Shown here: piece after piece, positions 24,461 to 50,745 of the stretch
Layout: each line of letters begins with the position of its first letter
How positions within the stretch are numbered: position 1 is the first letter of the stretch
Assembly: GCA_038904395.1 (NCBI GenBank)
Contig: JBCKKC010000005.1
Coordinates: 1-52,385 of the forward strand
DNA from: Acidimicrobiia bacterium
Lineage (GTDB): Bacteria > Actinomycetota > Acidimicrobiia > UBA2766
Direction: 5' to 3'
Length of the DNA: 52,385 nucleotides
Notes under the pieces: generated by a model
What the model saw: only the letters and a program-made list of their open reading frames with translations
Told to the model about the DNA's origin: nothing
Databases searched by the model: none
Translations under genes and position numbers: made by a program

Positions 24461-25474
24461 CTACCTGAACGATTGCAGCACATGGTTGACGTGGTGGAAG
24501 TCTTCTTTGTCGGCTGGAATTTCGAATATGAATGTCGCCACGCCAGAGCCGACGAGATCCTCGATTAACCTGCCAACGCGCTTGTAGTCTCCGACAAAGT
24601 AAGGACAGTCGGCTTGGAAAGTTTCAAATGGTTCAACCCAGTAGCCGGCTGCAGCTTCTGAAGGCATGTTAAACAAGCGCCGTTTCCATGTCGCATCGGT
24701 ATTGGCCATTGACACTTCAACGAGCCGAGCCTCACGTTTGCCGTCCCCGAATCGCTCGTGGGCAGCCTGCCAAGCCTGCGAGTCGGACTCCCTTGTGATG
24801 ACGCCAAAATGTAGCCCAGGAACACCGGCTCTGTCTCCAGATACCAGCAGAGAAGGGGGCAGCATTTGCAGCCGGGTAGCGCCAATTCTCGCTGCAGTAT
24901 TGACCGCGGAATCTGATTCGCCTGAAACAAATATTTCCGGAGACAGCTCAGGCGGAATCGGCGGCTGCAACTGCAGTCGAAGCGTCTGATAGAACTGCCC
25001 CTCGAATGTTAACGGGCGCTGACTACCCAATAGGGCGAGCATTACGTCAGCAAACTCCGCCAGCCGGGCGTATCGCTGAGCATGATCAAGCTGGTCTCCC
25101 ACAGCCGTGTGGTCGCTCAAGGCAGTGCCAGCAATAAGATTTACAGCCACTCTGCGGCTATACAACTGGGCGAGCGATGAAACCATGCGTGCTGCGGTAA
25201 ACGGGTGCATTGTCACTGGGTTAATCGCCACGATCGGCCGTAGGCGATTACTTTCTGCCACGACGGCTGTTCCAGCAACCCAGGGATCAAGCGGAGCGCC
25301 ACTGCCTGTAAATAGGAGCATCCCGTCAAGGTCGATCTCGTCGCTGAGGGAGATGACATCACGCGTGATGGCCAAGGCGTCTCTCGCATGCTTGACCCGC
25401 GGAGCAACCGAATAGAATTGTGGGCTTGCGCGCAGGTCGGATTCAGTCTGTGTCATCGAGGAATTGTCAGTCAT
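24461..25474 (-). CDS. Luciferase-like (LLM) flavin-dependent monooxygenase
   Basis: DPW...LRPIVAINP..MHPFTAARM..L..LY.RR..VNLIAG, FEGQFY, VSGESD; start overlaps the PKS stop. Confidence 0.88.
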   Translation of the reverse strand: MTDNSSMTQTESDLRASPQFYSVAPRVKHARDALAITRDVISLSDEIDLDGMLLFTGSGAPLDPWVAGTAVVAESNRLRPIVAINPVTMHPFTAARMVSSLAQLYSRRVAVNLIAGTALSDHTAVGDQLDHAQRYARLAEFADVMLALLGSQRPLTFEGQFYQTLRLQLQPPIPPELSPEIFVSGESDSAVNTAARIGATRLQMLPPSLLVSGDRAGVPGLHFGVITRESDSQAWQAAHERFGDGKREARLVEVSMANTDATWKRRLFNMPSEAAAGYWVEPFETFQADCPYFVGDYKRVGRLIEDLVGSGVATFIFEIPADKEDFHHVNHVLQSFR

Positions 25475-28223
25475 GGCTATTGTACTCCAACTCGTTCGGT
25501 GTCTCGGCTGAGTCGATAGTCTCCACGGACTCCAGGAGGGCAAACAATTTGGCCTCGGAAGCCTCGCTCAACACCTGGCTGAGCGTTTCCGACTGTGAGG
25601 CCAGCGTGGGGGTGTCAAGAAACATTCTCATGTTGAGATCAACCTGAAATATCTCTGATAGCTCGGCAACAATTTGGCCTGCCGTCAGCGAGTTACCGCC
25701 AAGATCGAGAAACATTTCGTTCATGCCCACTTGTCGTTCGATGCCAAGATACTCGCGCCACAGGTTAGCGACGACCTTTGCGAGTGGCGCCGTTGGCGCA
25801 ATGAAATCGGCTGGCAGTGCCTTTGCGCGAGGATCATCGAGATCATGGGCAACGTGGCCCTGCGCCTGATGTACGGAGGCAGGGCGGTTAAACCAATATC
25901 GGCTGCGTTGAAATCGATATGTCGGTAACGCAACTATCATGCGTCGCGTGCTGGCGTGGAATTTTTTCCAGTCGATCTCTGCCCCAGCACTCCATATCGT
26001 TCCCAAAGCATTTAGTAGTGCTTCGGTATGGTCGGCATCGGCCACATCGGGATGGGTAGACACGATCACCCGATCTGGTCTCGTATCCTGCCGACTGATG
26101 GCCCCGGCAAGCGTACCATCGCCAATATCGACAATGATATCGGGCGCATGTTCGATCAGGGCTGCCACTGCATCGCTTGATGCAATCGCCCCCAAACTAG
26201 TGACCGTTCCTGTGCCGGCAGGAATCTCGCTCGCCAGCAACTCCCCACCGCTGGCAAGAACCAAGGGAAACTCAGGATCTTGGGTTTGCACTTGCTCCCT
26301 GGCGGAGTCCTCCATGTCCAACATCCCGATAGCGGTGGCTAAGGGGAGCAGCCCGGCAATTGACGCAGCGACCAGCTCGCCCGTGGCCGAGCCCATGACC
26401 ACCGCAGGACTGACGCCCCACTCCTTGAGGCGCTTACCAAGGCCATATTGAGCAGCAAAGCACAATGTATTTTCCAATGCGTCGCTGTGTGTGGTGGAGC
26501 GCGTAGCCTGCTCTAGCTGTGGACGGATATCAAGATGGAGAACAGATCCAGCTGATTGAGCTACTTCTTCAAGAGCGGCTTTGAATACCGTGTCGTCGAC
26601 GAACTGGTCCATGTCAACTATTGCCTGCCAATTGCAAGTGGCGGAGAAGACCAGCGCTACTCGTGGTTGGAAAAAGGCTGGTCGGCCAGTCGAATGGCGT
26701 AACGCCTCAGAGACTTGCACGCAACTCTGGTCAACGACAAACGTCCTGTGCGAGAAGTGCTTTCGGCCAACGTTGCTGGTATATGCGACGTCGGCGAGCG
26801 CATCCTCGGTGACATTCAGATGGTCGGCATAGTCATCAACAATTTGCACAAGAGCATCAGAGGAATCTGCTGAACAAGTAACAATCTGCCATGGCCGCTG
26901 GTCAGGCAGCGAACGGCGTTGAGGGGCCTCTTCGAGAATGATGTGAACATTCGTGCCACCAACACCAAACGAATTGAAAGCGGCGCGGCGTGGCAACGAG
27001 TCTGTGTCCCAGCTACGAAGTTCCGTGTTTACGGCAAGTGATCCCTTCACCCAATCAATTTGAGGATTCGCAATGGTGAAGTTGATACTGGGTGGCAGTT
27101 CTTTGTGGTGCAAGGCCAGAGCGACCTTGATTAGACCTGCAATACCCGCGGCCGCATCGAGATTGCCAATATTGGGCTTGATCGACCCAACCGCAATGGT
27201 CTGCGAGCTATCGGCATTGCGCCCGTAGGTTTCTTGCAGGGCAGCAATCTCAATGACATCGCCCATGGCAGTTCCGGTCGCGTTCGATTCGATATAGGTA
27301 ATTGTCGACGGATCAATGTCAGTAGCTTGCAGAGCTTTATTAATCACACGGGTCTGGCCATCCTTGCTGGGCGCTGCAAAACTTACCTTTGCCCCTCCAT
27401 CGTTGTTGACAGCTGAGCCCTTGATTACTGCATAGATCTGGTCTTGAGCGGCAATGGCATCATCTAATCGCTTCAGAGCCACAACGCCAACACCGTCGCC
27501 GATGAGATATCCGTTCGCATCCTTGTCGAAGGAGCGACACTGGCCATCCGGGGAAGTTGTCGAACCACGCTCGTGCATATAGCCCATCGGCCGTGGCGCC
27601 TTGATGCTCGTACCGCCAACTAGAACCAAGTCGCATTCTTGATCGAGCAAGCTATTTACGCCATGGTGCACGGCAACCGCAGATGATGAACAGTTTGATT
27701 GCATTGTAACGCTGGGCCCGGTGAGTCCCAGTTTGTAAGAAGCGCGGGTGCTGAGATTGTCCTTGTCGCTGGAAACAGCGAGGACAAAATTCCCAAATGA
27801 CTTAACTAATGATTCGTTTGGAGCAACATTGTTCAAGAAATATAGGTTCATGCCACATGCGGCATAGACACCGATCTCTCCGGTGAATTTCTCGGGATCG
27901 CACCCAGCGTCTTCGAGACACTCCCAAGCACATTCAAGGAAAAGGCGCTGTTGCGGGTCGATCACAGCCGCTTCCCGGGGGGAGTAGCCAAAAAACGTGG
28001 CATCGAATTGATCAGCACCCTCGATGCCAGCCCACGCACGAACATAACGTTGATCAGACGACTCCGATGTTGGCACCTCAGCGGCAGCTAGTTCGTCGTC
28101 TGTGACAGCGCGTACTCCTGACTTTCCATCGCGCAAAAGTTGCCACAGCCCAGTGGCACTCGGAGCCCCTGGAAATCGGCCAGACATACCAACAATTGCC
28201 ACATCAAAAGCACTCGTGCTCAT
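25467..28223 (-). CDS. Type I PKS-like protein: KS (Cys intact, both His replaced by Asn) - degenerate AT - ACP
   Basis: VAIVGMSGRFPGA, DPQQRLFLE, QSNCSSS, IESNATGT, NIGNLDAAAG, SFGVGGTN; AT has GSATGE in place of GHSxGE; ACP LGGNSL. Confidence 0.92.
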   Translation of the reverse strand: MSTSAFDVAIVGMSGRFPGAPSATGLWQLLRDGKSGVRAVTDDELAAAEVPTSESSDQRYVRAWAGIEGADQFDATFFGYSPREAAVIDPQQRLFLECAWECLEDAGCDPEKFTGEIGVYAACGMNLYFLNNVAPNESLVKSFGNFVLAVSSDKDNLSTRASYKLGLTGPSVTMQSNCSSSAVAVHHGVNSLLDQECDLVLVGGTSIKAPRPMGYMHERGSTTSPDGQCRSFDKDANGYLIGDGVGVVALKRLDDAIAAQDQIYAVIKGSAVNNDGGAKVSFAAPSKDGQTRVINKALQATDIDPSTITYIESNATGTAMGDVIEIAALQETYGRNADSSQTIAVGSIKPNIGNLDAAAGIAGLIKVALALHHKELPPSINFTIANPQIDWVKGSLAVNTELRSWDTDSLPRRAAFNSFGVGGTNVHIILEEAPQRRSLPDQRPWQIVTCSADSSDALVQIVDDYADHLNVTEDALADVAYTSNVGRKHFSHRTFVVDQSCVQVSEALRHSTGRPAFFQPRVALVFSATCNWQAIVDMDQFVDDTVFKAALEEVAQSAGSVLHLDIRPQLEQATRSTTHSDALENTLCFAAQYGLGKRLKEWGVSPAVVMGSATGELVAASIAGLLPLATAIGMLDMEDSAREQVQTQDPEFPLVLASGGELLASEIPAGTGTVTSLGAIASSDAVAALIEHAPDIIVDIGDGTLAGAISRQDTRPDRVIVSTHPDVADADHTEALLNALGTIWSAGAEIDWKKFHASTRRMIVALPTYRFQRSRYWFNRPASVHQAQGHVAHDLDDPRAKALPADFIAPTAPLAKVVANLWREYLGIERQVGMNEMFLDLGGNSLTAGQIVAELSEIFQVDLNMRMFLDTPTLASQSETLSQVLSEASEAKLFALLESVETIDSAETPNELEYNSHD

Positions 28224-28242
28224 CTCAATACCCTCCATGTTG

Positions 28243-31200
28243 CTATTTTGAATCCATCTCTTTTGCCCTGCGTTCTCGTAACAGTTCACGGCGGGGCGTT
28301 AGTTTGGTAGCTCGCTCTGATCGTGCACTCGGCCCAGCGGTTTCATCATTCGTGACGACCTGTTTAGAGGTGCGCAAACCATCGACGTAGCTGACAAGAC
28401 TCTTGCAAGTAGCGTGGTCGTAAAGGTCGACCAGCTCGAAGTCATGCCCGACAAATTCCTGCAGTCGCAGGTGCACTTCCACCAAACTGAGCGAGTTGCC
28501 GCCCAGATCAAAAAAGTTCTCGTCTGGGTTAATGTCCTCGATGCCCAAGACTTCCTGCCATATGTGCACTACTGCCATGGCGGTCGAGTCAGCGCTTCGG
28601 TTGACCTTGGCCTTGGGTGTTGCAGCGCTGGGCGATGTCATCTCCTTGAGCCTCTGCCTGCTCACCTTGCCCGTGTCGGTGCGCGGAAGACAGTCAACAA
28701 TGTAGAGAACAGGAATCATGAACTCTGGAAGATGCTGCCTTAGGTGGGATCTGATCGAGCCCAGCAAGTTCCTATCTGCAACGCCGCGCAGCGGATCATT
28801 CGTATGGCTGGGCGAAAGGGCGGCAATTTCGCCGGGCTCTTCCCACTGCAATGGCGTGGTGGGTTTTCGCGGCGAAAAACGTAGGTCCATGAATGCCCCA
28901 CTTGAGGGCACTATGTCTACATGGCAACCAATGGCCAGCGCCATCGCCCAGATCGATTCTGGATCAACCGAAACGGCCGATACAATTCGGCCAAGTTTGC
29001 TGATAACGCTATCGTCAATCGCAGCCTCTAACTGAGCCGCCAGATTGGCAGCGTCCGCAATTCGAGCATTCGGGACATCCTTAACCAGAACGGGCCGACC
29101 TCGCCGTGAAGCTATCGCTGCACGCAGGGCCGTTTCGCTGCCCAGTTCAGACCAATTGAACCGCTCTGGTACGGGCGCCGGACTCGCTTCCCCCTCGCCA
29201 CCATCGGCGCTCCCAACATGGAGGATGACGTCGTAGCGGAATCCATTCAGCTCATTATGGTGACGGCCTCGTTTGAGCAGAAATTCCACATGAGTCACAT
29301 CTGCGAGTTCCTGAGCAATCGCTTCGAAAAAGCCTCGCGATACAACCAGCTCTTCTTCTTGGGCTACCCGTTGGCCTATACGCTTCTTAGCGTCAGCCGC
29401 AGTTGCGTCCGGCGGCAGTTGACCTAACACGACCGAAGCATGGAACATCGCCAACAGATCGAGATCCCGCACATCGCCCAGGTAAATACGACCGCCAGGC
29501 GCCACGAGGGGCACGATGCGTCGAATCACTTCCACCAAGTATTCGGAGCCCGGAAAATACTGCGTAACCGAATGCAGAACGATTGTGTCAAACGACTTCT
29601 GATCCAGGCCGGACACGTTGGTGGCTGGGCGCTCGAGCACAGTGACTTGATCTGTGATACCCGCCTCTTGAAGTTGAGAGTCTACGAATGCCACGGCCTG
29701 TGCGGAAAAATCAGTTGCCACATACTTTCTAGTGTCGTTGGCCAGTGCCATAACGAGATTGCCCGTGCCGCAGCCAATCTCAAGAACATCCTGTGGTGCA
29801 AACGCACGAATGCGGGCAACGGCTTCGCCAACCCACTCACTCATTTCTGCAGCCGCAAAGGGTTCGCCCGTATAGCTGCTGCGCCACATCTCGTTTTCAC
29901 GTTTGGGTTCTGCGGCGACCTGTCCGTAGAACTCTTCGTATAGGCGTTGCCACTCCCCGACTCGATCGGCCTCAGTGCCACCTTGAGAGTGATCCAACCT
30001 TTCCAAGGAAACGACCGCTGCCACTAGCCGCATATCACCATGCGGACCAGCCGAGGCCGTAACAACTGCCTCACTCACGCCAGGATGAGCAAGTAGAGCA
30101 GCTTCAACTTCTCCGGGCTCAATGCGAAATCCACGAATCTTTATCTGTTGGTCAACTCGGCCAAGATATTCCAAGGTACCATCCGGGCGGAACCTGCCTC
30201 TGTCGCCAGTGCGAAACAGACGTTCCCCACCAGTCAGGCTAAAGGGATCTGGCACAAACTTTGTCGCCGTCAAGTCTGCACAGTCGAGATAGCCTCGGGC
30301 AAGCCCTGCACCCCCCACACAAATCTCACCTTCAAATCGAGACGGGACCGGATTCAAATCGTGGTCGAGCACATAGATACGAGTGTTGCCGATCGGCTTG
30401 CCGATCGTGCATTCAGGATCTTGCGCCGAAATCACTTCAAGTGTGACATCTGCCGAAACTTCTGCTGAGCCATAGAGGTTGATCAGAGTGCATTCCGGCA
30501 GCGTTTCCATAAAGCGAGATGCGACATCGTCATGCAGTGCTTCACCGCTCGAATGGCAATACTTCAGATGGCCCAATCGGGACGACAAATCTTCGCCGCA
30601 ATCCAGGATGCTGCGCAATAGAGACGGAACTGCAACAAGGCGAGTCACCCGATGTTCTTCGAGTAGCTTGACAAGACGAACCGGATCACGCCCAGTTGCA
30701 GGATCAACTACAACCAGAGGCGCACCCGAAACGAGTGGCCAGAAGATTTCTCCACCAGAATCGAAGAAAGGCAGAGCCGTTTTTACACAGCCCACTTCTC
30801 CTGGCGCGTATGGAAACTCTTGCATCATCCATCGTTGCCTGTTGGTGATTCCGCGGTGGAGGCCGACAACTCCGTTCGGCTTACCCGTGGATCCCGATGT
30901 ATAGATCACATAGGCAGCGTTATCGGGCCCGACACTCGATATCGGATTGTCTTGCCTCTCGTTGACGAGGTCGGGGGCAGACGGGTCGATGCAAACTAAG
31001 CCATCGAAGTTGAGTTCACTGCCCTTGGCCGTGCTGACAAGAACCACATGGGCCCCACAATTGGTCAACATCATGCTTTGTCGCTTGGGCGGATCTGACG
31101 GATCGATCGGAACGTATGCTCCTCCGGCCTTGAACACCCCAAGGATGGCGACAATGCTTTGCGCGCAGCGTTCCATTACCAGCGCAACACGCACCTCAGG

Positions 31201-34986: not shown

Positions 34987-35102
34987 ATGCGTCTGATCCT
35001 TACCGAGTTAGTTCTAATCCCTTTGCGACTGCGGACTTGCTTTTGGGTGCGCCGTGACGTACGTGGGCACCGAGTCTAGTGGTGCGTCGCTGAGATGATG
35101 TG

Positions 35103-35217: not shown

Positions 35218-35246
35218 TGCGGCATTTCAGCGACACATCACTAAGC

Positions 35247-36910: not shown

Positions 36911-36946
36911 GAGAGAAAAACAAGAATGGTATCCATGAAGCCCTCG

Positions 36947-37057
36947 CGTCATCCTGAGGGAGCGCAACGAGCAATTCAAATGGATCGAACATGTCGGTTT
37001 GTCTGCGGCTGCGCCGCAGGTGGATCCTCACGGTCGCTGCGCTCCCTCAGGATGACG
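36947..37057. repeat. CGTC-type REP/REPIN-like element with 20-bp perfect terminal inverted repeats
   Basis: cgtcatcctgagggagcgca ... tgcgctccctcaggatgacg; an inverted homologue lies at 43079-43180. Confidence 0.9.
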
Positions 37058-37282
37058 TGACGTGACGGCGGCGCCCGCAGTTTCGTTAGCAGCCATCTCG
37101 AGACGCAAACTCTTGGGACGCATGTCGGTCCAGACCTTGTTGATGTGCTCGAGGCAAGCTTGGTTCGTGCCGCTGAATCCTGCATCATGCCAGCCCAACG
37201 CATTGACCCGACCGGCAGGCCAAATCGAGTATTGCTCCTCGTCGTTGATCACAACTTTGCTTTCTTCATCTATTTGGTTCAT
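37028..37282 (-). CDS. MbtH-like protein
   Basis: VVINDEEQYSIWP...GW...CLEHINKVWTDMRPKSL; GGAG RBS. Confidence 0.96.
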   Translation of the reverse strand: MNQIDEESKVVINDEEQYSIWPAGRVNALGWHDAGFSGTNQACLEHINKVWTDMRPKSLRLEMAANETAGAAVTSRHPEGAQRP

Positions 37283-42947: not shown

Positions 42948-43078
42948 GGACGTTAGGCCCCTTCTGCCAAAGGCGCTGGACTATGCCACCGGTGCCGGCA
43001 ACAAGATCATGACTGTGCGTCAGATCGTAATCTATGGACGCAGCCAATTTCTCAAAGTCATAACCACTACGCCCCCCT

Positions 43079-43226
43079 CGTCATCCTGAGGGAGGCGCCA
43101 GCCGACCGTGAGGATCCATACTGCGGCGAAGCCGCAGACCAACCGGCATGGTCGAGCCATTTCGAATTGCTCGCTGCGCTCGCACAACAGTAATGCCTGG
43201 ATTGCTTCGCTTCGCTCGCAATGACG
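43079..43226. repeat. Composite CGTC-type REP element in the divergent promoter region of the cluster
   Basis: Left part resembles the reverse complement of 36947-37057; right part resembles 33063-33134 and the reverse complement of 6999-7027. Confidence 0.88.
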
Positions 43227-43377
43227 GGAAGGCTGGTAGCGGCCCTCGGGCCCAGAACACGTGAATGGCTACCTACTTACAAACAAAATGAGTCATCTCG
43301 CTAATAGTGTTTGGCGAGGTCGGAACTTGCGTCTCTCACGAAAGAGTGCATCTGTTGGAGTGGAGGGGACTGATACT

Positions 43378-44643
43378 GTGCCAGACAATCGCCCGGTAGC
43401 AACAATTGAAGGTAGCGCTGGACTCGACCAGGCTCTCGCGCATTGCATCAACCCGCTGATCCAGCACGCGCAAGGCTCACATTCGCGTCATCTGGGACGC
43501 TTCTATGCTGAATCATCATATGAGCAACGACGTCATGAGCCAGACGCAATAGACCTCACTTTTGGCAATCCGCACGAAATGCCTCCGGACGGTCTCATCG
43601 CTCTGTTGCAAGAGGCAGCTATTCCAAAACGGGCCAACTGGTTTTCATATCTGCGCCATCATGAACCCGCCCGACAGGCTATTGCATCGACGCTATCGGA
43701 AGAGTTCCAGGCAACGGTCACGCCCGGCCACATCGCTATGACAAATGGGGCCTTTGCCGGTCTAATGACATGCTTGCGCACCGTGTGCACACCCGGGTCG
43801 GAAGTGATCTATTTCACACCGGGATGGTTTTACTACGAAGCGATGATTCTGGCTGCTGGGGCAAGTCCGGTCGCTGTGCCAGCAGATCCTAGAACATGGC
43901 AACTCGATCTGAATTTGCTCGAGGCAAGCCTGTCAGAGAGAACGAGTGCTGTAATTATCAACACTCCGAACAATCCAACCGGTGCGATCTACAGCGACGA
44001 AACTCTCCAAGCCCTCAGTGCGATTCTTTCGAAGGCGTCAAATCGTATCGGGCGCCCGATCTATGTTCTCTCAGACGAGTCTTACAAGCGCATAGTCTTT
44101 GACGACAATACGAGTGCAAGCATCGTCGCTCATTACCCGTGGTCATTTCTCATCTACACCTTGACCAAAACACTGCTTATGCCGGGCGAGCGCATTGGCT
44201 ACCTTGCACTATCTCCGCACATGCCCGATGCTGGCGAGATGTCTGAAGCTATCACCGTTACCCAACTGATGACTGGGTGGGCTTTTCCCAACAACACATT
44301 GCAATACGCGCTGGCAGATCTTGAAACTTGGAGTGTCGATGTCGGCCCGATTCAGCGCCGACGCGATCTCATGGTCAAGGGTTTGCGCGAGTTGGGATTC
44401 GAAGTAACGCAAAGCGCTGGTACCTTCTATCTTCTTGTCCGGTCGCCCGATCATGACGATTGGGCGTATTGCGAAATGCTCGCCGAAGTTGGCCTGCTCG
44501 TTTTACCTGGCTGCGTGATGGGGGCTCCGGGCTATTTCCGTATATCACTGACAGCACCGGATGATCAGCTGCATTCAGCACTTGAGCGGCTTAAGTGCTT
44601 TGGGCTGCCCTCGCCGGAAATCGACCAGTCCAACGCCCGATGA
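43378..44643 (+). CDS. PLP-dependent aminotransferase, class I/II
   Basis: INTPNNPTG, SDESY, TLTKTLLMPGERIGY (PLP Lys), YFRISL; GTG start after GGAGGGG. Confidence 0.92.
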   Translation: MPDNRPVATIEGSAGLDQALAHCINPLIQHAQGSHSRHLGRFYAESSYEQRRHEPDAIDLTFGNPHEMPPDGLIALLQEAAIPKRANWFSYLRHHEPARQAIASTLSEEFQATVTPGHIAMTNGAFAGLMTCLRTVCTPGSEVIYFTPGWFYYEAMILAAGASPVAVPADPRTWQLDLNLLEASLSERTSAVIINTPNNPTGAIYSDETLQALSAILSKASNRIGRPIYVLSDESYKRIVFDDNTSASIVAHYPWSFLIYTLTKTLLMPGERIGYLALSPHMPDAGEMSEAITVTQLMTGWAFPNNTLQYALADLETWSVDVGPIQRRRDLMVKGLRELGFEVTQSAGTFYLLVRSPDHDDWAYCEMLAEVGLLVLPGCVMGAPGYFRISLTAPDDQLHSALERLKCFGLPSPEIDQSNAR

Positions 44644-44666
44644 CACTGTGAGGACAGGAGTTACTT

Positions 44667-46112
44667 TTGAATTCTGATGTAGAGGTTTATCTCAAGCGAG
44701 CACGAATTGCCCAACAAGCTATCGCTCATTGGGACCAAGAACTCGTTGACAACATGGTCAGGGCTGTTGCGTGGCAGAGCTATGCACCAGCAAACGTGGG
44801 TCTCCTATCTGATCTGGCCTATGAGGAAACCGGGTTAGGCGACCCGGTTGACCTCTTCGCCTTGCATCGACAGCGCGTGATTGGCACGCTGCACGATCTT
44901 GAAGATGTACAGACAATCGGCCCCATCGAAACACGACTCGCAGAGGGGCTCGTGAAATTCGCTAAACCCGTAGGCGTGATCGCGGCCGCGACGCCGGCAA
45001 CAGCTCCTTGTTCGGGAATCACCTGCAATGCCCTGCAAATGATCAAGACCCGCAATGCCGTCATTTTTAGCCCCAATCCGCGCAGCCAAGCAGCTGCGAT
45101 CAAAACTGTAGAAATATTGCGGATTGGCCTCGAAGCAGCTGGGGCGCCACCCGACCTGCTGCAGTGCCTCACACCTAGCACCCGCCAACGCTCAAGCGAG
45201 CTCATGAAAGGTGTCGACCTCGTTGTGGCCTCGGGTGGGCCGGGAACAGTCGAGCGAGCGTATACCAGTGGGACCCCCGCAATCGGAGCTGGCGTTGGCA
45301 ATCCCAGTGTCATCGTCGACGAAACCGCCGACCTGCAAGCTGCTGCCAGCATGACCGCTGCAGGCGCCGGCTACAACAACGGAACATCTTGTTCGTCTGA
45401 GAGCAATGTGCTTGTGGCCGAGGCTGTCGTAGCCGAATTCAGAGAGCTTCTGTCTGAATGTGACGCACACATTTGCAGCAGCGTCGAGTCTGAACAAGTC
45501 AGCAAGTTACTTTGGCCCGAGGGAACTGTGCTAAATCGCGATGCGGTCGGCCAACCGGCCCCTGTGCTCGCCCAAATGGCCGGCTTCCATGTAGATGTGA
45601 GTTGTCGAGTGCTGGTCGTGCAAGCTACAGACTCGTCAATTGAGAACCCTGTGTTCACGGAAAAACTCGCTCCAGTACTCACACTCGTGCCATTTCAAGA
45701 CTTTGCTGAGGCCATTCAAATAGTCAAAACGATCGGCGACAAGTCGGGCCGGGGCCACAGTTGCGGTATTCATAGCTCAGATGAGTCTCGCATCAACGAA
45801 GTGGCGCGTCACGTCGAGTTCTGTCGCTTGATCGTCAACCAATCGACAGCATTTGCCAATAGCGGAAGTCTCGGCAATGGCTTACCGTTTACGTCAGTCG
45901 TTGCTTCTGGCACATGGGGAGGCTGCGCCCAGTCTGAAAACATTACCTGGCGCCATTTCTTAAATTACACGTGGGTCTCGCGCCCAATTACTCCAACAGA
46001 ACCCGTCGAAGACCAAATTTTTGGCAAGTGGTGGCAGTCAGAGGCATACGCGGAACTGGAAGAGGTCGCCATCGCCGACACAGACCGTGAACGGAAAGTA
46101 GCACCCTCGTGA
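44667..46112 (+). CDS. CoA-acylating aldehyde dehydrogenase family protein (SauS/SucD/AdhE-N-like)
   Basis: KPVGVI, KTRNAVIFSP, GGPGTV..AYTSG.PAIGAGVGN, catalytic TSCSSE, EKLAPVL, GTWGG...SENI. Confidence 0.88.
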   Translation: MNSDVEVYLKRARIAQQAIAHWDQELVDNMVRAVAWQSYAPANVGLLSDLAYEETGLGDPVDLFALHRQRVIGTLHDLEDVQTIGPIETRLAEGLVKFAKPVGVIAAATPATAPCSGITCNALQMIKTRNAVIFSPNPRSQAAAIKTVEILRIGLEAAGAPPDLLQCLTPSTRQRSSELMKGVDLVVASGGPGTVERAYTSGTPAIGAGVGNPSVIVDETADLQAAASMTAAGAGYNNGTSCSSESNVLVAEAVVAEFRELLSECDAHICSSVESEQVSKLLWPEGTVLNRDAVGQPAPVLAQMAGFHVDVSCRVLVVQATDSSIENPVFTEKLAPVLTLVPFQDFAEAIQIVKTIGDKSGRGHSCGIHSSDESRINEVARHVEFCRLIVNQSTAFANSGSLGNGLPFTSVVASGTWGGCAQSENITWRHFLNYTWVSRPITPTEPVEDQIFGKWWQSEAYAELEEVAIADTDRERKVAPS

Positions 46113-49100
46113 ACGCTCCCAGCCAATCGAGCCTGGCCCAACGTCTTGCCGAACTCCCACCCAAACAGCGAGAACTGTTGAAAGAACGTATCCGTCAGTC
46201 TGATACATCATCGGCAAGGACCATTCCGCTTCGTGCCGGCAAGAGTGCCCCACTGTCATTCGCGCAGGAACGCCTCTGGTTCTTGGAGCAGATCGAGAAT
46301 GGATCGGTTCACCCAAACGATGCCATGTTGCTTCGGTTCGAAGGTGCCTTCGACCATGCAACATTCGATGCCAGCGTGCAAGAAATCATCAAACGCCACG
46401 AGATTTTGCGGACACGATTCGAGACAGACTCCAACGGGCTGCCCACGCAGACCACGCTGGGCTATGAAACACTCCAAATCCCAATTGTGGCCGTAGATCT
46501 TCCAGACCCTGCCGACGCTCAAGAGTTCGTCTTGCGCGAACTAGAAAAAGATCTTGAACAGCCACTCGATCTAGCAACCCCACCCCAGATGCGACTGACC
46601 ATCTACCGTCAGTCGCCCGAGTTGCATTTCGCTGCCATTACGATCCACCACATCATTTCAGACCTCTGGTCATTTGGAATTGTTATCCGTGAACTTACTG
46701 CGCTGTACGCTGCTTTCGCTCAAGGTAAGCCGAGTCCACTTCCGGCGCTGACGGTTCAGTATGGCGACTACGCCGCATGGCAACGTGCCCAAATGGCCGG
46801 ATCGAAGCTCGAAGAAGATCTTTCATATTGGAAACATAACCTCGAGGGCGCTCCGGCAGTACTTGACATTGCCCACCTTGATACGAATCGCCCCCCGCAA
46901 CGTTTCCAGGGGGCATCAAGTCATTTCACTGTGAACGCCGATGTGACCAAGCGAATCAAGAAGTGGAGCCATCAGAGCGGCTTCACACTGGCGATGACCC
47001 TGCTCGCGCTGTACAAAGCCGTCCTGAGCAAGCACGCCAATGAAACCGATGTTGTCGTTGGCATGCCCGTCGCGACACGGTCACCTCAACTTGAGGGGCT
47101 CCTAGGGTGCTTTCTCAACATGGTCGTGCTGCGCACCGACCTATCGGACAACCCATCTTTGAGCGATGCCGTCCAGCGCGTTAAAGACGCCTACTTGAAC
47201 GCTAGCGACCACCAAGACCTGCCTTTCGAACGTCTCGTAGCTGAGATCCAACCGCAACGGTCTCGGCTTCATCACCCTGTCTTTCAAGTGGCGTTTGCTC
47301 TACAGAACACCCCGCTTGAGCCATTTTCGGTTTCTGGGCTCACGATGACACACATCCAACCACCCAGTGGCCGATCACGCCTTGATCTGACGCTTCGAGT
47401 GACAGAAGTCAACGGCGAGTTAGATTGCGAACTTGAATATGACGTGGATATTTTCGAGCCCGGCAAGATCGCTCAGCTAGCTAAACATTTGCAGCACACC
47501 TTTGAGGCTGCAGCGGCGGATCCATCGACAGACATTCAAAACATGGCGCGACTGCCCGAAGATGAACGCTTCATGGTGCTGCAAGCCTGGAATGACACCT
47601 CAGTTGAATGGGATTCCGAGCTGCTTATTCACCGCATCTTTGAGGAACGCTGTGCGGTGACACCCAACGAAATAGCCGTGATCTCCGAAGGCGGATCAAT
47701 TACGTATGCGGAACTTAACGCCAAAGCAAATCAACTTGGGCGGTTTCTGCGGCATCTGGGCGTACGGCCAGAAGTGCCTGTAGGCGTATGCATGCGTCGA
47801 TCAATATCCGAGGTCACGGCAATACTCGCAATCCTCAAGGCCGGCGGCTACTACGTACCCGTCAATCCTGATGATTCTTCTGACCGCTGTGACGAAGTGC
47901 TTGATGACGTCCAGGCAGTCATCGTGCTGGCCGACACAAATATCGTTGACGACATTTTCGCACCGGGCCGTCGAATTGTCGATGTTGAAGCCGAATCCGA
48001 CACGATTGCGCAATTTGACACCCACAATCTCGATAATTTGAGTCTGCCCGACAACCTCGCGTACGTACTGTTCACGTCTGGGTCGACGGGGCAGCCAAAA
48101 GGAGTAGCGGTTCACCATCGAGGCTTCTGCAACCGCATTCTGTGGGGACAGCGAAACCATGCACTTGCCCCGGGCGACCGCGTGCTGCGCAAAGCGCCAT
48201 GTGTTTTTGATGTGTCTCTGGACGAACTCTTCCGAGCTTTATTCACCGGAGCGACCTCCGTTCTGGCAAAGCCGGCGGCGCACTTCGACCCTAATGAGCT
48301 ACTAGCGGAGATCAACAAATACGGGGTGACAGACCTTGACTTCTCACCCCCCGCCCTGCAAATCTTTCTCGACACCCTGGGCGACGGCAAATGTCCGTCT
48401 TTGCAGCGAGTTGTATCGGGCGTGGCTACACTGCCACCTGCCACGATGGCCGCTTTCCACGAAACAATTGGCACAAGGCTAGACAACCTCTACGGGCCGA
48501 CAGAGGTCTCGGTTTCGTGCACAGCCTGGAAGTGCACTCCCGACGACATGCCCGCTCGTGTTCCCATCGGCCGTCCCATGTCGAACGTGCGCATATATGT
48601 GCTCGATAAATATGGCGAACCCGCTCCAGTGGGAGTACCAGGAGAGATCTATGTCGGAGGAGCAGGAGTTGCCAGAGGCTACCACGGCCGCCCTGATCTG
48701 ACCGCAGAGCGATTCGTGCCCGACCCCTTCAGCAGCGGCGGAGGCGAACGTCTCTATCGAACCGGCGACATTGGCAAATTCACGTCGAGTGGTGACCTCA
48801 TCTTCTTGGGTCGATCTGATAATCAAATCAACATGCGCGGCCACCGAATTGAACCCGCCGAGTTGGAAGCCAGGTTGACCGAGCACCCTGACGTCGAGGC
48901 TGCCATCGTATTGCTCAAAACACGAGCCGACAAAGATACTTGCCTGTGTGCATACATTGTCGCAACCGACGGATCCGACCCCAGTCCCGCCACCTTACGA
49001 GCGCACATGCGACAACGTCTTCCCGAATATATGGTTCCGTCGGCCTATGTATCCATCGATGCCTTGCCTTTAACAAGAACGGGCAAGATTGACCACGCAA

Positions 49101-49381
49101 GCTTGCCCGATCCGGACCCTTCACTGGCTCGACACAATACCCGGACAATTGCACCCCGCAACGAAACTGAAGCTACTCTTGCGCAAATTTGGGGTGACGT
49201 GCTCGGCTGCCGTACCGTCGGCATTAGCGATGACTTTTTCGACATTGGTGGCGATTCTATCCTGGCAATTCGGGTTATGAAATTGGCATGTGACCAATTT
49301 GATATCGAGGTTGAGATCGCGGCACTCTTTGATTTCCCGACCATCGAAGAACTTGCCCCCTACTTTGAGGCGGCCAAGTGA
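46109..49381 (+). CDS. Single-module NRPS C-A-PCP
   Basis: LSFAQERLWF, HHIISD, FTSGSTGQPKG, YRTGD, IGGDSI; N-terminal helical docking-like segment. Confidence 0.95.
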   Translation: MNAPSQSSLAQRLAELPPKQRELLKERIRQSDTSSARTIPLRAGKSAPLSFAQERLWFLEQIENGSVHPNDAMLLRFEGAFDHATFDASVQEIIKRHEILRTRFETDSNGLPTQTTLGYETLQIPIVAVDLPDPADAQEFVLRELEKDLEQPLDLATPPQMRLTIYRQSPELHFAAITIHHIISDLWSFGIVIRELTALYAAFAQGKPSPLPALTVQYGDYAAWQRAQMAGSKLEEDLSYWKHNLEGAPAVLDIAHLDTNRPPQRFQGASSHFTVNADVTKRIKKWSHQSGFTLAMTLLALYKAVLSKHANETDVVVGMPVATRSPQLEGLLGCFLNMVVLRTDLSDNPSLSDAVQRVKDAYLNASDHQDLPFERLVAEIQPQRSRLHHPVFQVAFALQNTPLEPFSVSGLTMTHIQPPSGRSRLDLTLRVTEVNGELDCELEYDVDIFEPGKIAQLAKHLQHTFEAAAADPSTDIQNMARLPEDERFMVLQAWNDTSVEWDSELLIHRIFEERCAVTPNEIAVISEGGSITYAELNAKANQLGRFLRHLGVRPEVPVGVCMRRSISEVTAILAILKAGGYYVPVNPDDSSDRCDEVLDDVQAVIVLADTNIVDDIFAPGRRIVDVEAESDTIAQFDTHNLDNLSLPDNLAYVLFTSGSTGQPKGVAVHHRGFCNRILWGQRNHALAPGDRVLRKAPCVFDVSLDELFRALFTGATSVLAKPAAHFDPNELLAEINKYGVTDLDFSPPALQIFLDTLGDGKCPSLQRVVSGVATLPPATMAAFHETIGTRLDNLYGPTEVSVSCTAWKCTPDDMPARVPIGRPMSNVRIYVLDKYGEPAPVGVPGEIYVGGAGVARGYHGRPDLTAERFVPDPFSSGGGERLYRTGDIGKFTSSGDLIFLGRSDNQINMRGHRIEPAELEARLTEHPDVEAAIVLLKTRADKDTCLCAYIVATDGSDPSPATLRAHMRQRLPEYMVPSAYVSIDALPLTRTGKIDHASLPDPDPSLARHNTRTIAPRNETEATLAQIWGDVLGCRTVGISDDFFDIGGDSILAIRVMKLACDQFDIEVEIAALFDFPTIEELAPYFEAAK

Positions 49382-50745
49382 CGCCAGTTGAAACATCATT
49401 GCTGCTCGATAGACCAGATGAGTCACCTGCGGCTCCCGCTGAGACAAAACAAGGTGAGGATGCTCCTAGCGAACGGACATCGGGTGTGAGAGATGTATTT
49501 CGGATAGCGCGATTTCGGCTGCTTCTTGGCGCACGCACAATGTCGGTGCTAGGAAACGGCCTCGCCCCTGTGGCAATAGCGTTCGCTGTATTAGATCTGC
49601 GCGATTCTGGCGTCGCCCTCGGCCTAGTACTGGGCGTCCGTGCTCTGGTAACACTGCCTGGGCTGTTGCTAGGTGGCGTCTTGGCCGATCGCATGTCACG
49701 ATCGAAACTCATGGTCATAACCGACCTCATCGCCGGAATCTGCCAGATTGTGACTGCAATATTGTTCTTCTCTGGGCATGCGGCCATATGGAACGTGGCG
49801 TTGTTGCAAGGAATCAATGGTTTCGCGGCGGCAGTGTTCCTGCCCACTTCATCGGCAGTCATCCCCCAAGTGGTGCCATCTTCCCATTTACAGGCAGGCA
49901 ACGCCATCCTCGGATTCAGCATTAAGGGCTCCATGATGCTGGGGGCACTCCTGGGCGGAGCGCTCTATGCACTGGTTGGTCCCGGATGGACGCTCACAGT
50001 TGATGCCGCAACCTTCTTGATTAGCGCAGCAATCAGCATGCGCCTCCGTACTCCGCGCGTTCGAAACGTCAAGGACAGCAGCATGGCCTCGCTGCGCGAG
50101 GGATGGAAGGCGTTTTGGGCAAGAGATTGGCTGTGGAGCGTTGTTATTCAGTTCACGGTGGTAAACGCTGCGTTCATGGGAACAATGGAAGTTTTGGGGC
50201 CACTCATCGCTAAACACTCATTGCACGGTGCGTCCTCGTGGGCACTCGTACTGGCAGCCAACTCTATTGGCCTGCTGGGTGGCGGCATCATTTCGTTACG
50301 CTTGCGTACACGTCGTCCACTACGAACTGGCACATTCGCCACATTCCTCTTGGCCTTACCAATGCTTGCCCTCGTATCGACGCTCAACATGCCACTGCTC
50401 ATGCTTGCAGCCTTTGGAGCGGGCGTCGGCGCTGCCGTCTTCGTGGTCTTGTGGGATACGACCATGCAAAGCCATATCCCTAATGATCTGCTAGCGCGGG
50501 CCAGCGCTTTCGATGCGTTCGGATCGTTCGGGGCAGTACCAATTGCGATGGCTCTATATGGGGTCCTGTCTCGTGTAGTAGGAATCGATAGATTGCTGTG
50601 GATATCTGCTGTGCTAATCATTGTTGCTGGTGCGGCGGTGCTCCTTGTGCGTGACGTTCGAGAATTGCCACTGTCGCCTCATGCGGCACAAAACCTGACC
50701 GATCACATCGCTAGTCCTCAAGAAGTAATGCATGACGAATTCTAA
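49378..50745 (+). CDS. MFS transporter (likely exporter)
   Basis: About 12 hydrophobic segments, GGVLADRMSR motif; GTGA overlap with the NRPS stop. Confidence 0.92.
   Translation: MTPVETSLLLDRPDESPAAPAETKQGEDAPSERTSGVRDVFRIARFRLLLGARTMSVLGNGLAPVAIAFAVLDLRDSGVALGLVLGVRALVTLPGLLLGGVLADRMSRSKLMVITDLIAGICQIVTAILFFSGHAAIWNVALLQGINGFAAAVFLPTSSAVIPQVVPSSHLQAGNAILGFSIKGSMMLGALLGGALYALVGPGWTLTVDAATFLISAAISMRLRTPRVRNVKDSSMASLREGWKAFWARDWLWSVVIQFTVVNAAFMGTMEVLGPLIAKHSLHGASSWALVLAANSIGLLGGGIISLRLRTRRPLRTGTFATFLLALPMLALVSTLNMPLLMLAAFGAGVGAAVFVVLWDTTMQSHIPNDLLARASAFDAFGSFGAVPIAMALYGVLSRVVGIDRLLWISAVLIIVAGAAVLLVRDVRELPLSPHAAQNLTDHIASPQEVMHDEF

What the first reader, a model, noticed from the sequence alone, without database searches (positions are those of the whole stretch)
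24461..50745. Apparently self-contained lipopeptide NRPS/PKS cluster with several non-canonical parts
Seen: FAAL-ACP-C-A-MT-PCP, KS*-AT*-ACP, C-A-PCP and CocE-C-A-PCP-TE, plus LLM, PhyH, aminotransferase, acylating ALDH, PPTase, MbtH and MFS genes. Inferred from docking-like termini, the order is NRPS(28243-34986), PKS-like, NRPS(46109-49381), then CocE-NRPS. That would give fatty acyl - N-methyl-beta/omega-amino acid - (basic residue) - Gly, followed by oxidative and hydrolytic tailoring. I do not recognise this as a characterised pathway.
Basis: partly seen in the sequence, partly recalled or inferred. Interest (0 to 1): 0.85.

Follow-up and report, generated by a model that had tools for sequence, protein, structure and literature searches.

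The report
Orphan lipopeptide gene cluster, rare family
This is an intact gene cluster for a small fatty-acid-capped peptide; no product is known for it, it recurs in a few distant actinomycetes, and two of its enzyme parts are built in unusual ways.

Summary
Window 24461-50745 carries eleven intact genes in two divergent operons. They are FAAL-ACP-C-A(MT)-PCP, a KS-linker-AT remnant-ACP protein, C-A-PCP, an S15 (CocE-type) hydrolase fused to C-A-PCP-TE, a luciferase-like monooxygenase, a PhyH dioxygenase, a PPTase, MbtH, a class I/II aminotransferase, a CoA-acylating aldehyde dehydrogenase and an MFS pump.

The KS keeps its cysteine, but both histidines are asparagine. The AT has lost its serine and its back half.

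The cluster is not unique. Syntenic relatives at 41-54% identity, with both arms together, lie in a Micromonospora and a Nonomuraea genome. The family is rare: 5 of 151 Micromonospora and 1 of 110 Nonomuraea genomes, and 9 S15-C fusion proteins among the 120 best hits.

My best model is fatty acyl, then an N-methylated beta/omega-amino acid, then a Lys-like residue, then Gly. The KS-ACP would act as a non-elongating transfer station, and the aldehyde dehydrogenase and aminotransferase would supply the odd amino acid.

My paper searches found no description of this cluster. I rate it a new variant of a known kind, of moderate interest.

The parts
24461..25543 (-). Luciferase-like (FMN-type) monooxygenase. 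It lies directly downstream of the KS-ACP gene in the window and in both actinomycete relatives.
   Evidence: Pfam Bac_luciferase 99.8 bits. The best NCBIfam and PDB matches are alkanesulfonate monooxygenase SsuD, at 88 and 72 bits, far below the family cut-off. Relatives are 46% identical in G186 and G290 and 43% in L108.
25467..28289 (-). KS(Cys-Asn-Asn) - KS/AT linker - AT remnant - ACP. Domain ranges: KS 27078-28205, linker 26697-27068, AT remnant 25776-26696, ACP 25587-25775. Key residues: Cys200 at 27690-27692, Asn336 at 27282-27284, Asn376 at 27162-27164, GSATG at 26379-26393. The likely true start is Met23 at 28221-28223.
   Evidence: Pfam, translation, alignment against canonical PKS proteins, invariant columns C200, N336 and N376 in 7 family members, coordinates.
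28243..34986 (-). NRPS1: FAAL (33241-34923) - ACP (32833-32988) - C (31390-32763) - A core (30004-31329) - MT (29443-29826) - PCP (28384-28572). The A-domain pocket holds Phe235/Asp236, at 30760-30765.
   Evidence: Pfam, NCBIfam FAAL families, MT closest to PDB 5wmm, pocket register, coordinates.
35247..36167 (-). Fe(II)/2-oxoglutarate dioxygenase of the PhyH family, closest to MysH. The His-x-Asp motif is at 35775-35783.
   Evidence: Pfam PhyH 104 bits. Best PDB match is MysH, 124.9 bits, E 3e-35. Relatives are 52-53% identical in G186 and G290.
36164..36979 (-). Sfp-type 4'-phosphopantetheinyl transferase.
   Evidence: Pfam ACPS and AASDHPPT_N. NCBIfam HetI-like, 50 bits, below cut-off. No tblastn match at E 1e-5 in the G186 or G290 regions.
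37028..37282 (-). MbtH-like protein.
   Evidence: Pfam MbtH 57.9 bits. Relatives are 54-60% identical in G186 and G290.
37305..42947 (-). NRPS3: S15 hydrolase (41979-42866) - PepX_C (41256-41894) - C (39816-41144) - A (38325-39752) - PCP (38046-38234) - divergent TE (37308-37919). S15 triad: Ser163 at 42459-42461, Asp296 at 42060-42062, His322 at 41982-41984.
   Evidence: Pfam. NCBIfam CocE_NonD 341.8 bits, above the 66.3 cut-off. The triad aligns to Ser117, Asp259 and His287 of cocaine esterase and is invariant in 9 fusion proteins. TE. A signature DILQLGMIW.
42948..43260 (.). Divergent intergenic region between the two operons. It presumably holds the promoters.
   Evidence: Gene coordinates. 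No promoter scan was run.
43261..44643 (+). Class I/II PLP aminotransferase.
   Evidence: Pfam Aminotran_1_2 159.6 bits. NCBIfam PRK06836 321.6 bits, below the 376 cut-off. The best PDB matches are aspartate-type aminotransferases. Relatives are 47-50% identical in G186 and G290.
44667..46112 (+). CoA-acylating aldehyde dehydrogenase, of the family that holds EutE, SucD and SauS as I recall those names. A Cys at residue 242 (45390-45392) is the likely catalytic residue. This is read from the sequence only and was not aligned to a known active site.
   Evidence: NCBIfam best is acylating sulfoacetaldehyde dehydrogenase SauS, 427.8 bits, below the 600 cut-off. PDB best is succinate-semialdehyde dehydrogenase (acetylating) 8cei, 243.7 bits. 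Relatives are 49-52% identical in G186 and G290.
46109..49381 (+). NRPS2: C (46244-47569) - A (47639-49087) - PCP (49175-49357), preceded by a 45-residue N-terminal extension.
   Evidence: Pfam. A signature DVDDVGLVS, identical in G186 and G290. N-terminal invariant residues in 3 sequences.
49378..50745 (+). MFS efflux pump.
   Evidence: Pfam MFS_1 and MFS_3. NCBIfam 2A0121 197 bits and EntS 115.5 bits, both below cut-off. Relatives are 41-43% identical.

Best explanation
This is a working gene cluster, with no known product, for a small exported lipopeptide.

**Shown by the sequence**
- All genes are intact.
- All five carrier domains keep their serine.
- The three C domains keep HHxxxD.
- The S15 domain keeps its Ser-Asp-His triad.
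- The KS keeps its Cys but not its two His.
- The AT is dead.

**Inferred pathway**
1. The FAAL loads a fatty acid onto its ACP.
2. C1 joins it to the amine of a beta- or omega-amino acid, such as beta-alanine, beta-aminoisobutyrate or GABA. A1 activates this amino acid with its shifted-Asp pocket, and the inserted MT N-methylates it.
3. The aminotransferase and the CoA-acylating aldehyde dehydrogenase make that amino acid. The route runs from an anionic acyl-CoA (malonyl-, methylmalonyl- or succinyl-CoA) to the semialdehyde and then to the amine.
4. The acyl-aminoacyl chain moves to the KS cysteine and then to the KS protein's own ACP without elongation. With no His pair and no AT there is no decarboxylative condensation.
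5. This KS-ACP acts as a transfer and tailoring station, where the always-adjacent LLM oxidises the chain.
6. C2 adds a Lys-like basic residue, C3 adds Gly, and the TE releases the product.
7. The MysH-like dioxygenase hydroxylates a carbon next to a nitrogen, or a side chain.
8. The S15 domain acts in cis as a hydrolase or acyl-transfer (editing) domain.
9. The MFS pump exports the product.
For: - **Domain content and integrity:**
- **KS and AT state:**. Cys200, Asn336 and Asn376 are invariant in 7 proteins that are only 43-46% identical to the window's. None of about 104 KS domains in 80 ordinary PKS loci shows either substitution.
- **Conserved synteny:** NRPS2, NRPS1, KS-ACP, LLM, S15-C and MbtH lie together, and AmT, ALDH and PhyH lie together, in G186 and G290 at 41-54% identity.
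- **A signatures:**. The A1 register was checked against both flanking anchors, and A1 is conserved in the relatives.
- **MT:** closest to 5wmm.
- **ALDH:** closest to enzymes that act on sulfoacetaldehyde and succinate semialdehyde.
- **Precedent:** an aldehyde dehydrogenase has been linked to beta-alanine or beta-aminoisobutyrate supply in NRPS clusters (passages of PMC12305651).
- **MysH chemistry:** passages of PMC10666671.
- **S15 triad:**
- **Module order:** only FAAL-ACP-C can start, only the TE module can end, and the KS gene follows NRPS1 in 3 of 3 clusters.
Against: - No residue assignment comes from a predictor or an assay. The Gly and Lys-like calls and the beta-amino call rest on recalled signature tables. 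Figure S44 of PMC12305651, which compares beta-aminoisobutyrate A domains, was in a closed supplement.
- PanD is present in the window's genome and in G186 and G290, so a dedicated beta-alanine route is not strictly needed.
- The aminotransferase is of the alpha-amino-acid class I/II, not the omega class III.
- In the actinomycete operons NRPS2 lies upstream of NRPS1, so gene order is not colinear with the proposed order.
- The TE is very divergent.
- PhyH and LLM are conserved in relatives that use Asp rather than Gly at the third position, so their targets are unknown.
- Nothing shows expression or a product.
Confidence: 0.5

Rival explanations
1. The KS-AT remnant-ACP protein is an evolutionary relic. 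It is at most a scaffold or an extra carrier. The chain passes directly from the NRPS1 PCP to C2, and the KS cysteine plays no catalytic role.
For: The AT is visibly decaying. It is longer in the window than in the actinomycete proteins, where most of it is deleted. The A domain of the S15-C protein has also decayed in the relatives, so domain loss is under way in this family. One relative, P0012, has Ser and His instead of Asn and Asn.
Against: Cys200, Asn336, Asn376 and the ACP serine are invariant in 7 proteins at 43-46% identity to the window's. The gene is kept next to NRPS1 and the LLM in 3 of 3 clusters. Neutral decay would not keep the same two asparagines.
Confidence: 0.2
2. The cluster family makes a lipidated metal chelator (siderophore-like). 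The basic residue or the beta-hydroxy-aspartate of the relatives would serve as the ligand, and the LLM or PhyH would make the chelating group.
For: The MFS pump has EntS-type matches, and an MbtH is present. The relatives carry a stand-alone A domain with the signature I recall as aspartate (DLTKVGHVG, DLSKIGHIG), next to a CmlA-type beta-hydroxylase. The middle residue is Lys-like.
Against: No lysine or ornithine N-hydroxylase of the usual flavin type, no uptake genes and no siderophore-interacting reductase were seen among the Pfam hits for window 1-24455 or 50951-52384. The EntS match is far below cut-off (115.5 against 324 bits). The window's own third residue reads as Gly, not hydroxy-Asp.
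Confidence: 0.15
3. The C-terminal Gly is sacrificial. The MysH-like dioxygenase or the LLM hydroxylates its alpha carbon, and the hemiaminal collapses to a C-terminal primary amide plus glyoxylate. This is what MysH is proposed to do and, as I recall, what the monooxygenase domain of the myxothiazol MtaG module does.
For: The last A domain reads as Gly. The PhyH protein's best solved relative is MysH, at 124.9 bits. MysH is proposed to alpha-hydroxylate an N-linked glycyl group, which is then hydrolysed (PMC10666671 passages). An LLM-type oxygenase is also present.
Against: PhyH and LLM are equally conserved in G186 and G290. There the matching carrier is loaded by an Asp-type A domain, and I found no Gly-signature module in G186. 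The LLM lies next to the KS gene, not next to the Gly module.
Confidence: 0.2
4. The S15 domain supplies or removes the lipid. Either it frees the fatty acid that the FAAL activates, or it cleaves the acyl-N-methyl-aminoacyl head group from the mature peptide, as a leader or prodrug-type step.
For: Separate S15 genes 41-48% identical to this domain lie directly upstream of NRPS genes: a C-A-PCP-TE gene in L110 and a FAAL-ACP-C-A gene in L112. Of 49 metagenome loci with at least 3 kb beside the S15 gene, 6 have a FAAL nearby and 9 have a FAAL or an NRPS. As I recall, the S15 family includes enzymes that cut after a tertiary-amide (proline) residue.
Against: 40 of the 49 loci show no such neighbour. 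In this family the domain is fused to a C domain of the last module, not to the FAAL. It has no export signal context. Cleaving off the head group would leave only a dipeptide in the window's version.
Confidence: 0.15

Closest known systems
Uncharacterised syntenic clusters in Micromonospora (handle G186, contig C1, about 2.79-2.83 Mb) and Nonomuraea (handle G290, contig C2, about 2.28-2.33 Mb)
   Same: The same ten gene types recur at 41-54% identity: C-A-PCP, FAAL-ACP-C-A(MT)-PCP, KS(Cys-Asn-Asn)-ACP, LLM, S15-C, MbtH, AmT, ALDH, PhyH and MFS. The A1 and A2 pocket signatures are identical.
   Different: In the relatives the S15-C protein ends in an A-domain remnant plus a PCP and has no TE. 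That PCP is presumably loaded in trans by a stand-alone A domain with an Asp-type signature, beside a CmlA-type hydroxylase and a class III aminotransferase. The window has a full Gly-type A domain, a PCP and a TE, and its own PPTase. No product is known for any of them.
FAAL-initiated lipopeptide and lipo-polyketide assembly lines (review PMC11837247; daptomycin-type lipoinitiation, abstract of PMC9113097)
   Same: A FAAL and an ACP hand a fatty acid to the first C domain of an NRPS.
   Different: Here the FAAL and ACP are fused to the first module, the first residue is not a normal alpha-amino acid, and a dead PKS module follows. In the review, my word search found 'ketosynthase' 4 times but not 'hydrolase', 'alanine', 'Micromonospora' or 'N-methyl'.
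Non-elongating KS0 domains of trans-AT polyketide synthases (recalled, not from a call)
   Same: The KS keeps the acyl-accepting cysteine, lacks a catalytic histidine, is followed by an ACP and adds no carbon.
   Different: Both histidines are replaced, by the same residue, across the family. The domain sits in a cis-AT-type frame with a decaying AT, between NRPS modules. My search for 'Cys-Asn-Asn' with 'ketosynthase' found no paper.
Cocaine esterase and the CocE/NonD S15 hydrolases
   Same: The domain scores above the family cut-off at 341.8 bits. The Ser-Asp-His triad aligns with Ser117, Asp259 and His287 of cocaine esterase.
   Different: Here the domain is fused to the N-terminus of an NRPS C domain. 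Only 9 such fusions, including the window's own, are among the 120 best hits listed from a 5.8-billion-protein collection. The substrate is unknown.
MysH, the Fe/2OG dioxygenase of mycosporine-like amino acid biosynthesis
   Same: It is the best solved relative of the PhyH protein, at 124.9 bits. A His-x-Asp motif is present.
   Different: This is a different pathway, and identity over the match is not known to be high. MysH acts on a free sunscreen molecule (PMC10666671).
Aldehyde dehydrogenases CdeT, KasF and surugamide Orf1, linked to beta-alanine or beta-aminoisobutyrate supply
   Same: An aldehyde dehydrogenase is encoded in an NRPS cluster whose product holds a beta-amino acid (PMC12305651 passages).
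   Different: I did not compare the sequences. Those enzymes are proposed to work in pyrimidine breakdown. The window's enzyme belongs to the CoA-acylating branch and is paired with a class I/II aminotransferase.

Membership tests
Modular NRPS with FAAL lipoinitiation | A fatty acyl-AMP ligase domain followed by a carrier domain and a C domain | tested here: met
   Pfam order is AMP-binding, DIP2-like C-terminal subdomain, PP-binding, Condensation. The best specific NCBIfam hits are FAAL families, at 388 and 357 bits, below their full-length cut-offs.
Modular NRPS with FAAL lipoinitiation | Catalytic motifs: HHxxxD in the C domains and a Ser in each carrier domain | tested here: met
   HHTVMD, HHIISD and HHTAAD are present, as are carrier serines at residues 680 and 2165 (NRPS1), 1050 (NRPS2), 1598 (NRPS3) and 867 (KS protein).
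Modular NRPS with FAAL lipoinitiation | A chain-releasing thioesterase | tested here: inconclusive
   Pfam Thioesterase scores 21.1 bits, below the 26.4 cut-off. The best PDB match is NocB TE at 27.9 bits, with the serine aligned.
Elongating type I PKS module (KS-AT-ACP) | A KS Cys-His-His triad | tested here: not met
   The Cys is present, but both His are Asn.
Elongating type I PKS module (KS-AT-ACP) | An AT with the GHSxG serine and an intact fold | tested here: not met
   There is no Acyl_transf_1 hit. GSATG aligns with GHSxG, and the region that aligns with the back half of the AT is missing.
CocE/NonD (S15) serine hydrolases | A family model score above cut-off and a Ser-Asp-His triad | tested here: met
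   TIGR00976 scores 341.8 bits against a 66.3 cut-off. The triad aligns and is invariant in 9 sequences.
SauS, acylating sulfoacetaldehyde dehydrogenase | An equivalog model score of at least 600 bits | tested here: not met
   The score is 427.8 bits. This is the best-scoring family, but the protein is not a member by the curated threshold.
MysH-type Fe/2OG dioxygenases | Close sequence relation and the iron-binding His-x-Asp...His triad | tested here: inconclusive
   The match to MysH scores 124.9 bits. A His-x-Asp is present. I did not map the distal His, and the substrate cannot be told.
Terminal-amide-forming Gly module with an integrated monooxygenase (MtaG type, recalled) | An LLM-type oxygenase domain inserted in the Gly module itself | tested here: not met
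   The LLM is a separate gene next to the KS gene, not inside NRPS3.
Characterised cluster in MIBiG | A full-length match to a cluster with a known product | not testable with these tools
   No MIBiG or antiSMASH was on hand. Paper searches found nothing that describes this architecture.

The most novel reading that the evidence does not exclude
The conserved trio of KS(Cys-Asn-Asn)-ACP, adjacent LLM and S15-hydrolase-C fusion is a new kind of in-line unit. In it a ketosynthase fold has been repurposed for chemistry other than elongation, and the two asparagines are selected for that chemistry. The KS would hold an N-acyl-beta-aminoacyl thioester for flavin-dependent oxidation or elimination. 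The S15 serine would take over or cleave the chain before the next condensation.
Probability: 0.2. Interest if true: 0.75.

Novelty: new variant of a known kind. Interest (0 to 1): 0.55.

Why it matters
It defines a rare, conserved family of lipopeptide clusters with no known product, spread over distant actinomycete lineages. Micromonospora and Nonomuraea are cultivable genera (my recollection), so their members of the family could be tested at the bench. The family offers two enzymological questions:
- what a ketosynthase with Cys-Asn-Asn does between NRPS modules;
- why a cocaine-esterase-type hydrolase is fused to, or encoded beside, NRPS genes.

It also points to a possible CoA-reductase plus transaminase route to a beta/omega-amino acid building block. 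On the other side, orphan NRPS clusters are very common, and nothing here shows an unusual bioactivity or a new principle.

Tried and rejected
- **The search for related loci, genome contigs, with the KS family alignment.** The patterns chosen were generic KS motifs. None of the 80 loci returned holds the Asn-Asn form. I reached the relatives through the genome search instead.
- **The search of protein representatives with the same alignment.** All 150 rows listed are giant multi-KS synthases of 4167-7920 residues, ranked by summed scores. The family size could not be counted this way.
- **Complex prediction.** I paired the KS protein's ACP and tail (residues 825-940) with the NRPS2 N-terminus (1-130). 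The tool gave no verdict, so this counts neither for nor against binding.
- **Pfam on the termini at E up to 10.** No docking family was found at the NRPS2 N-terminus, in its two relatives, or at the tails of NRPS1 and the KS protein. By contrast, TubC_N is found on the NRPS of locus L110.
- **The protein-atlas search on the S15 domain.** It returned only generic CocE/NonD names.
- **PanD search.** PanD is present in all three genomes, so it neither requires nor excludes a dedicated beta-alanine route.
- **Relatives of the window's genome.** 41 genomes were searched, the window's own included. The best non-self matches are ordinary PKS proteins at 41-42% identity over the KS, and most of the rest are small KS-type hits at 26-31% identity. 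None of the seven loci kept from other genomes (L002-L008) has the Asn-Asn form. The cluster was not found in those searched.
- **Paper searches.** None found a description of this architecture. Searches returned no papers.
- **Sulfonate reading of the ALDH and LLM.** I considered a taurine or sulfoacetate link, because the best NCBIfam names are SauS and SsuD. I set it aside because both scores lie below cut-off, the best solved ALDH relative acts on succinate semialdehyde, and no A domain could activate a sulfonate.
- **Downstream cystathionine beta-synthase gene.** I considered it as a diaminopropionate (SbnA-type) supplier. It passes the CBS equivalog cut-off (514.7 against 510.25 bits) and misses the SbnA one (246.7 against 349.95). 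It has no counterpart in the G186 or G290 regions.
- **The 170-aa frame at 35000-35512(-).** It has no Pfam hit and overlaps the end of the PhyH gene. I treat it as not a gene.
- **Taxonomy.** Of the 120 best PurK relatives listed, 8 carry an organism name. Seven are of the Nitriliruptor group and one is 'Actinomycetota', all at 56-60% identity. This is a weak placement of the bin in the Actinomycetota.
- **Tools and files not available.** Supplements were closed, so Figure S44 of PMC12305651 was not seen.

Full report
**What is there.** The window is one whole contig (C5) of a 2.0-Mb genome bin that is 70% complete. Between 24461 and 50745 lie eleven intact genes in two divergent operons, separated by a 313-base gap at 42948-43260.

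The minus-strand operon, in order of transcription:
- an S15 hydrolase-PepX_C-C-A-PCP-TE synthetase, 1880 aa
- MbtH
- a PPTase
- a PhyH dioxygenase
- FAAL-ACP-C-A(MT)-PCP, 2247 aa
- a KS-linker-AT remnant-ACP protein, 940 aa
- a luciferase-like monooxygenase (LLM)

The plus-strand operon:
- a class I/II aminotransferase
- a CoA-acylating aldehyde dehydrogenase
- C-A-PCP, 1090 aa
- an MFS pump

These assignments rest on Pfam and NCBIfam. The three C domains are the only ones found in the bin.

**The non-canonical parts are real.**
- *KS.* In the KS protein the acyl-accepting cysteine is present (Cys200). The two histidines of the decarboxylative triad are both asparagine (Asn336, Asn376).
- *AT.* GSATG stands where two ordinary PKS proteins have GHSxG. 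The stretch that aligns with the back half of their AT is missing, and Pfam sees no AT.
- *Not private decay.* Of the 120 best relatives listed, 8 lack the AT family, the window's own protein included. Of the other 7, 6 carry Asn at both positions. They come from a JGI metagenome, Streptomyces harbinensis, three Micromonospora and a Nonomuraea. The seventh has Ser and His. In the 7-sequence alignment, at 43-46% identity to the window's protein, Cys200, Asn336 and Asn376 are invariant.
- *Baseline.* In 80 ordinary PKS loci I counted about 104 KS domains with the usual histidine motifs and none with either change in a KS context.
- *S15 domain.* It passes the CocE/NonD model (341.8 bits against a 66.3 cut-off). 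Its Ser163, Asp296 and His322 align with Ser117, Asp259 and His287 of cocaine esterase.
- *TE.* It is very divergent but keeps an aligned serine.

**Relatives.** The cluster was not found in 40 relatives of the bin.
- *Micromonospora.* Searching the genus with one of the Asn-Asn proteins gave 5 of 151 genomes. This is a floor, because a stricter first look was used.
- *Nonomuraea.* 1 of 110 genomes.
- *Context read.* I read two of these. In Micromonospora G186 and Nonomuraea G290 the same genes lie together. The identities to the window's proteins, G186 first, are:

| Protein | G186 | G290 |
|---|---|---|
| C-A-PCP | 47% | 44% |
| FAAL..PCP | 46% | 43% |
| KS-ACP | 48% | 49% |
| LLM | 46% | 46% |
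| S15-C | 43% | 41% |
| MbtH | 54% | 60% |
| aminotransferase | 50% | 47% |
| aldehyde dehydrogenase | 52% | 49% |
| PhyH | 53% | 52% |
| MFS | 43% | 41% |

- *Both arms together.* So both arms co-occur in 3 of 3 clusters read.
- *The S15-C fusion is rare.* Among the 120 best hits listed, 9 proteins carry S15 plus C, the window's own included. Four of them sit on contigs of the same length as an Asn-Asn KS protein.
- *Decay in the relatives.* In the eight relatives the A domain has decayed to a remnant, or in S. harbinensis to a partial domain. A PCP follows, and there is no TE (Pfam for G186).
- *Extra genes in the two actinomycete clusters.* They carry a stand-alone A domain, a CmlA-type beta-hydroxylase and a class III aminotransferase. 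The window's version is the compact one, with a full A-PCP-TE.
- *A metagenome contig.* L108 repeats the order LLM, CmlA-type, S15-C, acyl-CoA dehydrogenase.

**What the pockets say.** I took the nine pocket positions from a MAFFT alignment anchored on the third module.
- *A3* reads DILQLGMIW, which I recall as the glycine signature.
- *A2* reads DVDDVGLVS, identical in G186 and G290. It has two acidic residues in the pocket and resembles the lysine-type signatures I recall.
- *A1* reads FDGVHSLAD. Counting from the A3 core motif, and back from the conserved Glu, shows the same spacing as in A2 and A3. So the Asp that binds the alpha-amino group is replaced by Phe, and an Asp sits one position later. 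The motif is conserved in both relatives. I recall a similar pattern for beta-alanine domains but could not confirm it (closed supplement of PMC12305651).
- *The stand-alone A domains of the relatives* read DLTKVGHVG and DLSKIGHIG, which I recall as aspartate. With the CmlA-type enzyme this suggests beta-hydroxy-Asp there.
- *The MT* inserted in A1 is closest to the solved interrupted A-MT domain 5wmm (153.7 bits). As I recall, that domain is a backbone N-methylase.

**Accessory enzymes.**
- *Aldehyde dehydrogenase.* It belongs to the CoA-acylating branch. Its best family is the sulfoacetaldehyde enzyme SauS (427.8 bits, below the 600 cut-off). Its best solved relative is the acetylating succinate-semialdehyde dehydrogenase (243.7 bits). 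Both act on short aldehydes that carry an anionic group. Paired with an aminotransferase, this fits a route from malonyl-, methylmalonyl- or succinyl-CoA to the semialdehyde and then to beta-alanine, beta-aminoisobutyrate or GABA, which would be the A1 substrate. An aldehyde dehydrogenase has been tied to beta-alanine or beta-aminoisobutyrate supply in other NRPS clusters (passages of PMC12305651).
- *Points against that route.* The aminotransferase is of the alpha-type class, and PanD is present in all three genomes.
- *PhyH.* Its best solved relative is MysH (124.9 bits). MysH is proposed to hydroxylate the alpha carbon of an N-linked glycyl group, which is then hydrolysed (passages of PMC10666671).
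- *LLM.* It resembles SsuD only weakly.

**How it most likely works.** Domain logic fixes most of the order. Only FAAL-ACP-C can start, only the TE module can end, and the free C-A-PCP must lie between them. The KS gene directly follows NRPS1 in all three clusters and is itself followed by the LLM. I therefore place the KS-ACP after NRPS1 as a non-elongating station. The chain goes onto Cys200 and then onto the ACP. There the LLM can act, and C2 takes the chain over. The predicted product is fatty acyl, N-methyl-beta/omega-amino acid, Lys-like residue, Gly, with further oxidation. Pfam finds no docking family there. The N-terminal 45 residues of NRPS2 share only a few invariant residues with the two relatives.

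**The S15 domain.** Its role is the least clear. Separate S15 genes 41-50% identical to it are common in metagenomes: 336 relatives among 504 pattern matches. Of the 80 loci kept, 49 have at least 3 kb on one side of the gene. L108 was left out of this count by my filter. Among the 49, 9 show a FAAL or NRPS gene nearby, and 6 of these show a FAAL. In L110 and L112 the S15 gene lies 21 and 72 bases upstream of a C-A-PCP-TE gene and a FAAL-ACP-C-A gene. So this hydrolase type has been recruited to NRPS lines more than once. Editing, lipid supply or head-group removal are all open.

**Comparison and novelty.** The system works like a FAAL-initiated lipopeptide line with a KS0-type transfer step. 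As an elongating PKS module it fails two defining tests. The ALDH is not SauS by the curated cut-off. The LLM is not built into the Gly module, unlike the MtaG type I recall. I could not run MIBiG or antiSMASH. My paper searches found no description, and the FAAL review did not mention a hydrolase of this kind. I rate it a new variant of a known kind. It is a real, conserved, rare cluster family with no known product and two unusual enzyme forms, but nothing shows a new principle yet.

**Limits.**
- No expression or product data exist.
- Residue names rest on recalled signature tables.
- Only two relatives were read in full.
- The four other Micromonospora hits are 88-97% identical to the query and are not independent.
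- The S. harbinensis cluster could not be fetched.
- The search of earlier findings and paper supplements were closed.

Noticed in passing
window 11918-16192 (+): A single 1424-aa frame joins a proton-antiporter-type membrane domain (Proton_antipo_M, residues 134-357) to a full DabA domain (residues 578-1383, 784.5 bits). As I recall, the two halves of this inorganic-carbon pump are usually separate genes.
   Followed up: no
window 2-2266 (+), 2531-6919 (+), 17094-20375 (-): There are three large repeat proteins. One is a subtilase with NHL repeats, cut by the contig start. One is a 1462-aa protein with nine DUF5122 beta-propeller repeats. One is a 1093-aa NHL/SGL repeat protein.
   Followed up: no
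window 50951-52384 (+): A cystathionine beta-synthase gene is cut by the contig end. It just passes the CBS equivalog cut-off (514.7 against 510.25 bits) and has weaker matches to cysteate synthase and SbnA families. It has no counterpart in the related clusters, so it is probably not part of the cluster.
   Followed up: partly
L110:2-1657 with 1679-5950; L112:1111-2982 with 3055-8349; also L111, L113, L164, L175, L180: Separate S15 (CocE-type) hydrolase genes 41-48% identical to the window's domain lie directly beside NRPS or FAAL genes in unrelated metagenome contigs. Of 49 loci with enough flank, 9 show this.
   Followed up: partly
G186 region (L099:1831-3513, L100:3526-5121) and G290 region: The actinomycete versions of the cluster carry a stand-alone A domain with an Asp-type pocket and a CmlA-type diiron beta-hydroxylase. 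The in-line A domain of their S15-C protein has decayed to a remnant. This looks like replacement of a cis A domain by a trans one.
   Followed up: partly
window 20662-21261 (+): A 199-aa frame matches only the C-terminal DUF4143 domain, at profile positions 20-159. As I recall, this domain normally follows an ATPase domain, so this may be a gene fragment.
   Followed up: no
window 48500-48520, NRPS2 A domain: The window's A2 domain reads SGVAT, where the Nonomuraea relative has SGGEE and the Micromonospora one SGVEE. I did not assess whether this affects activity.
   Followed up: no
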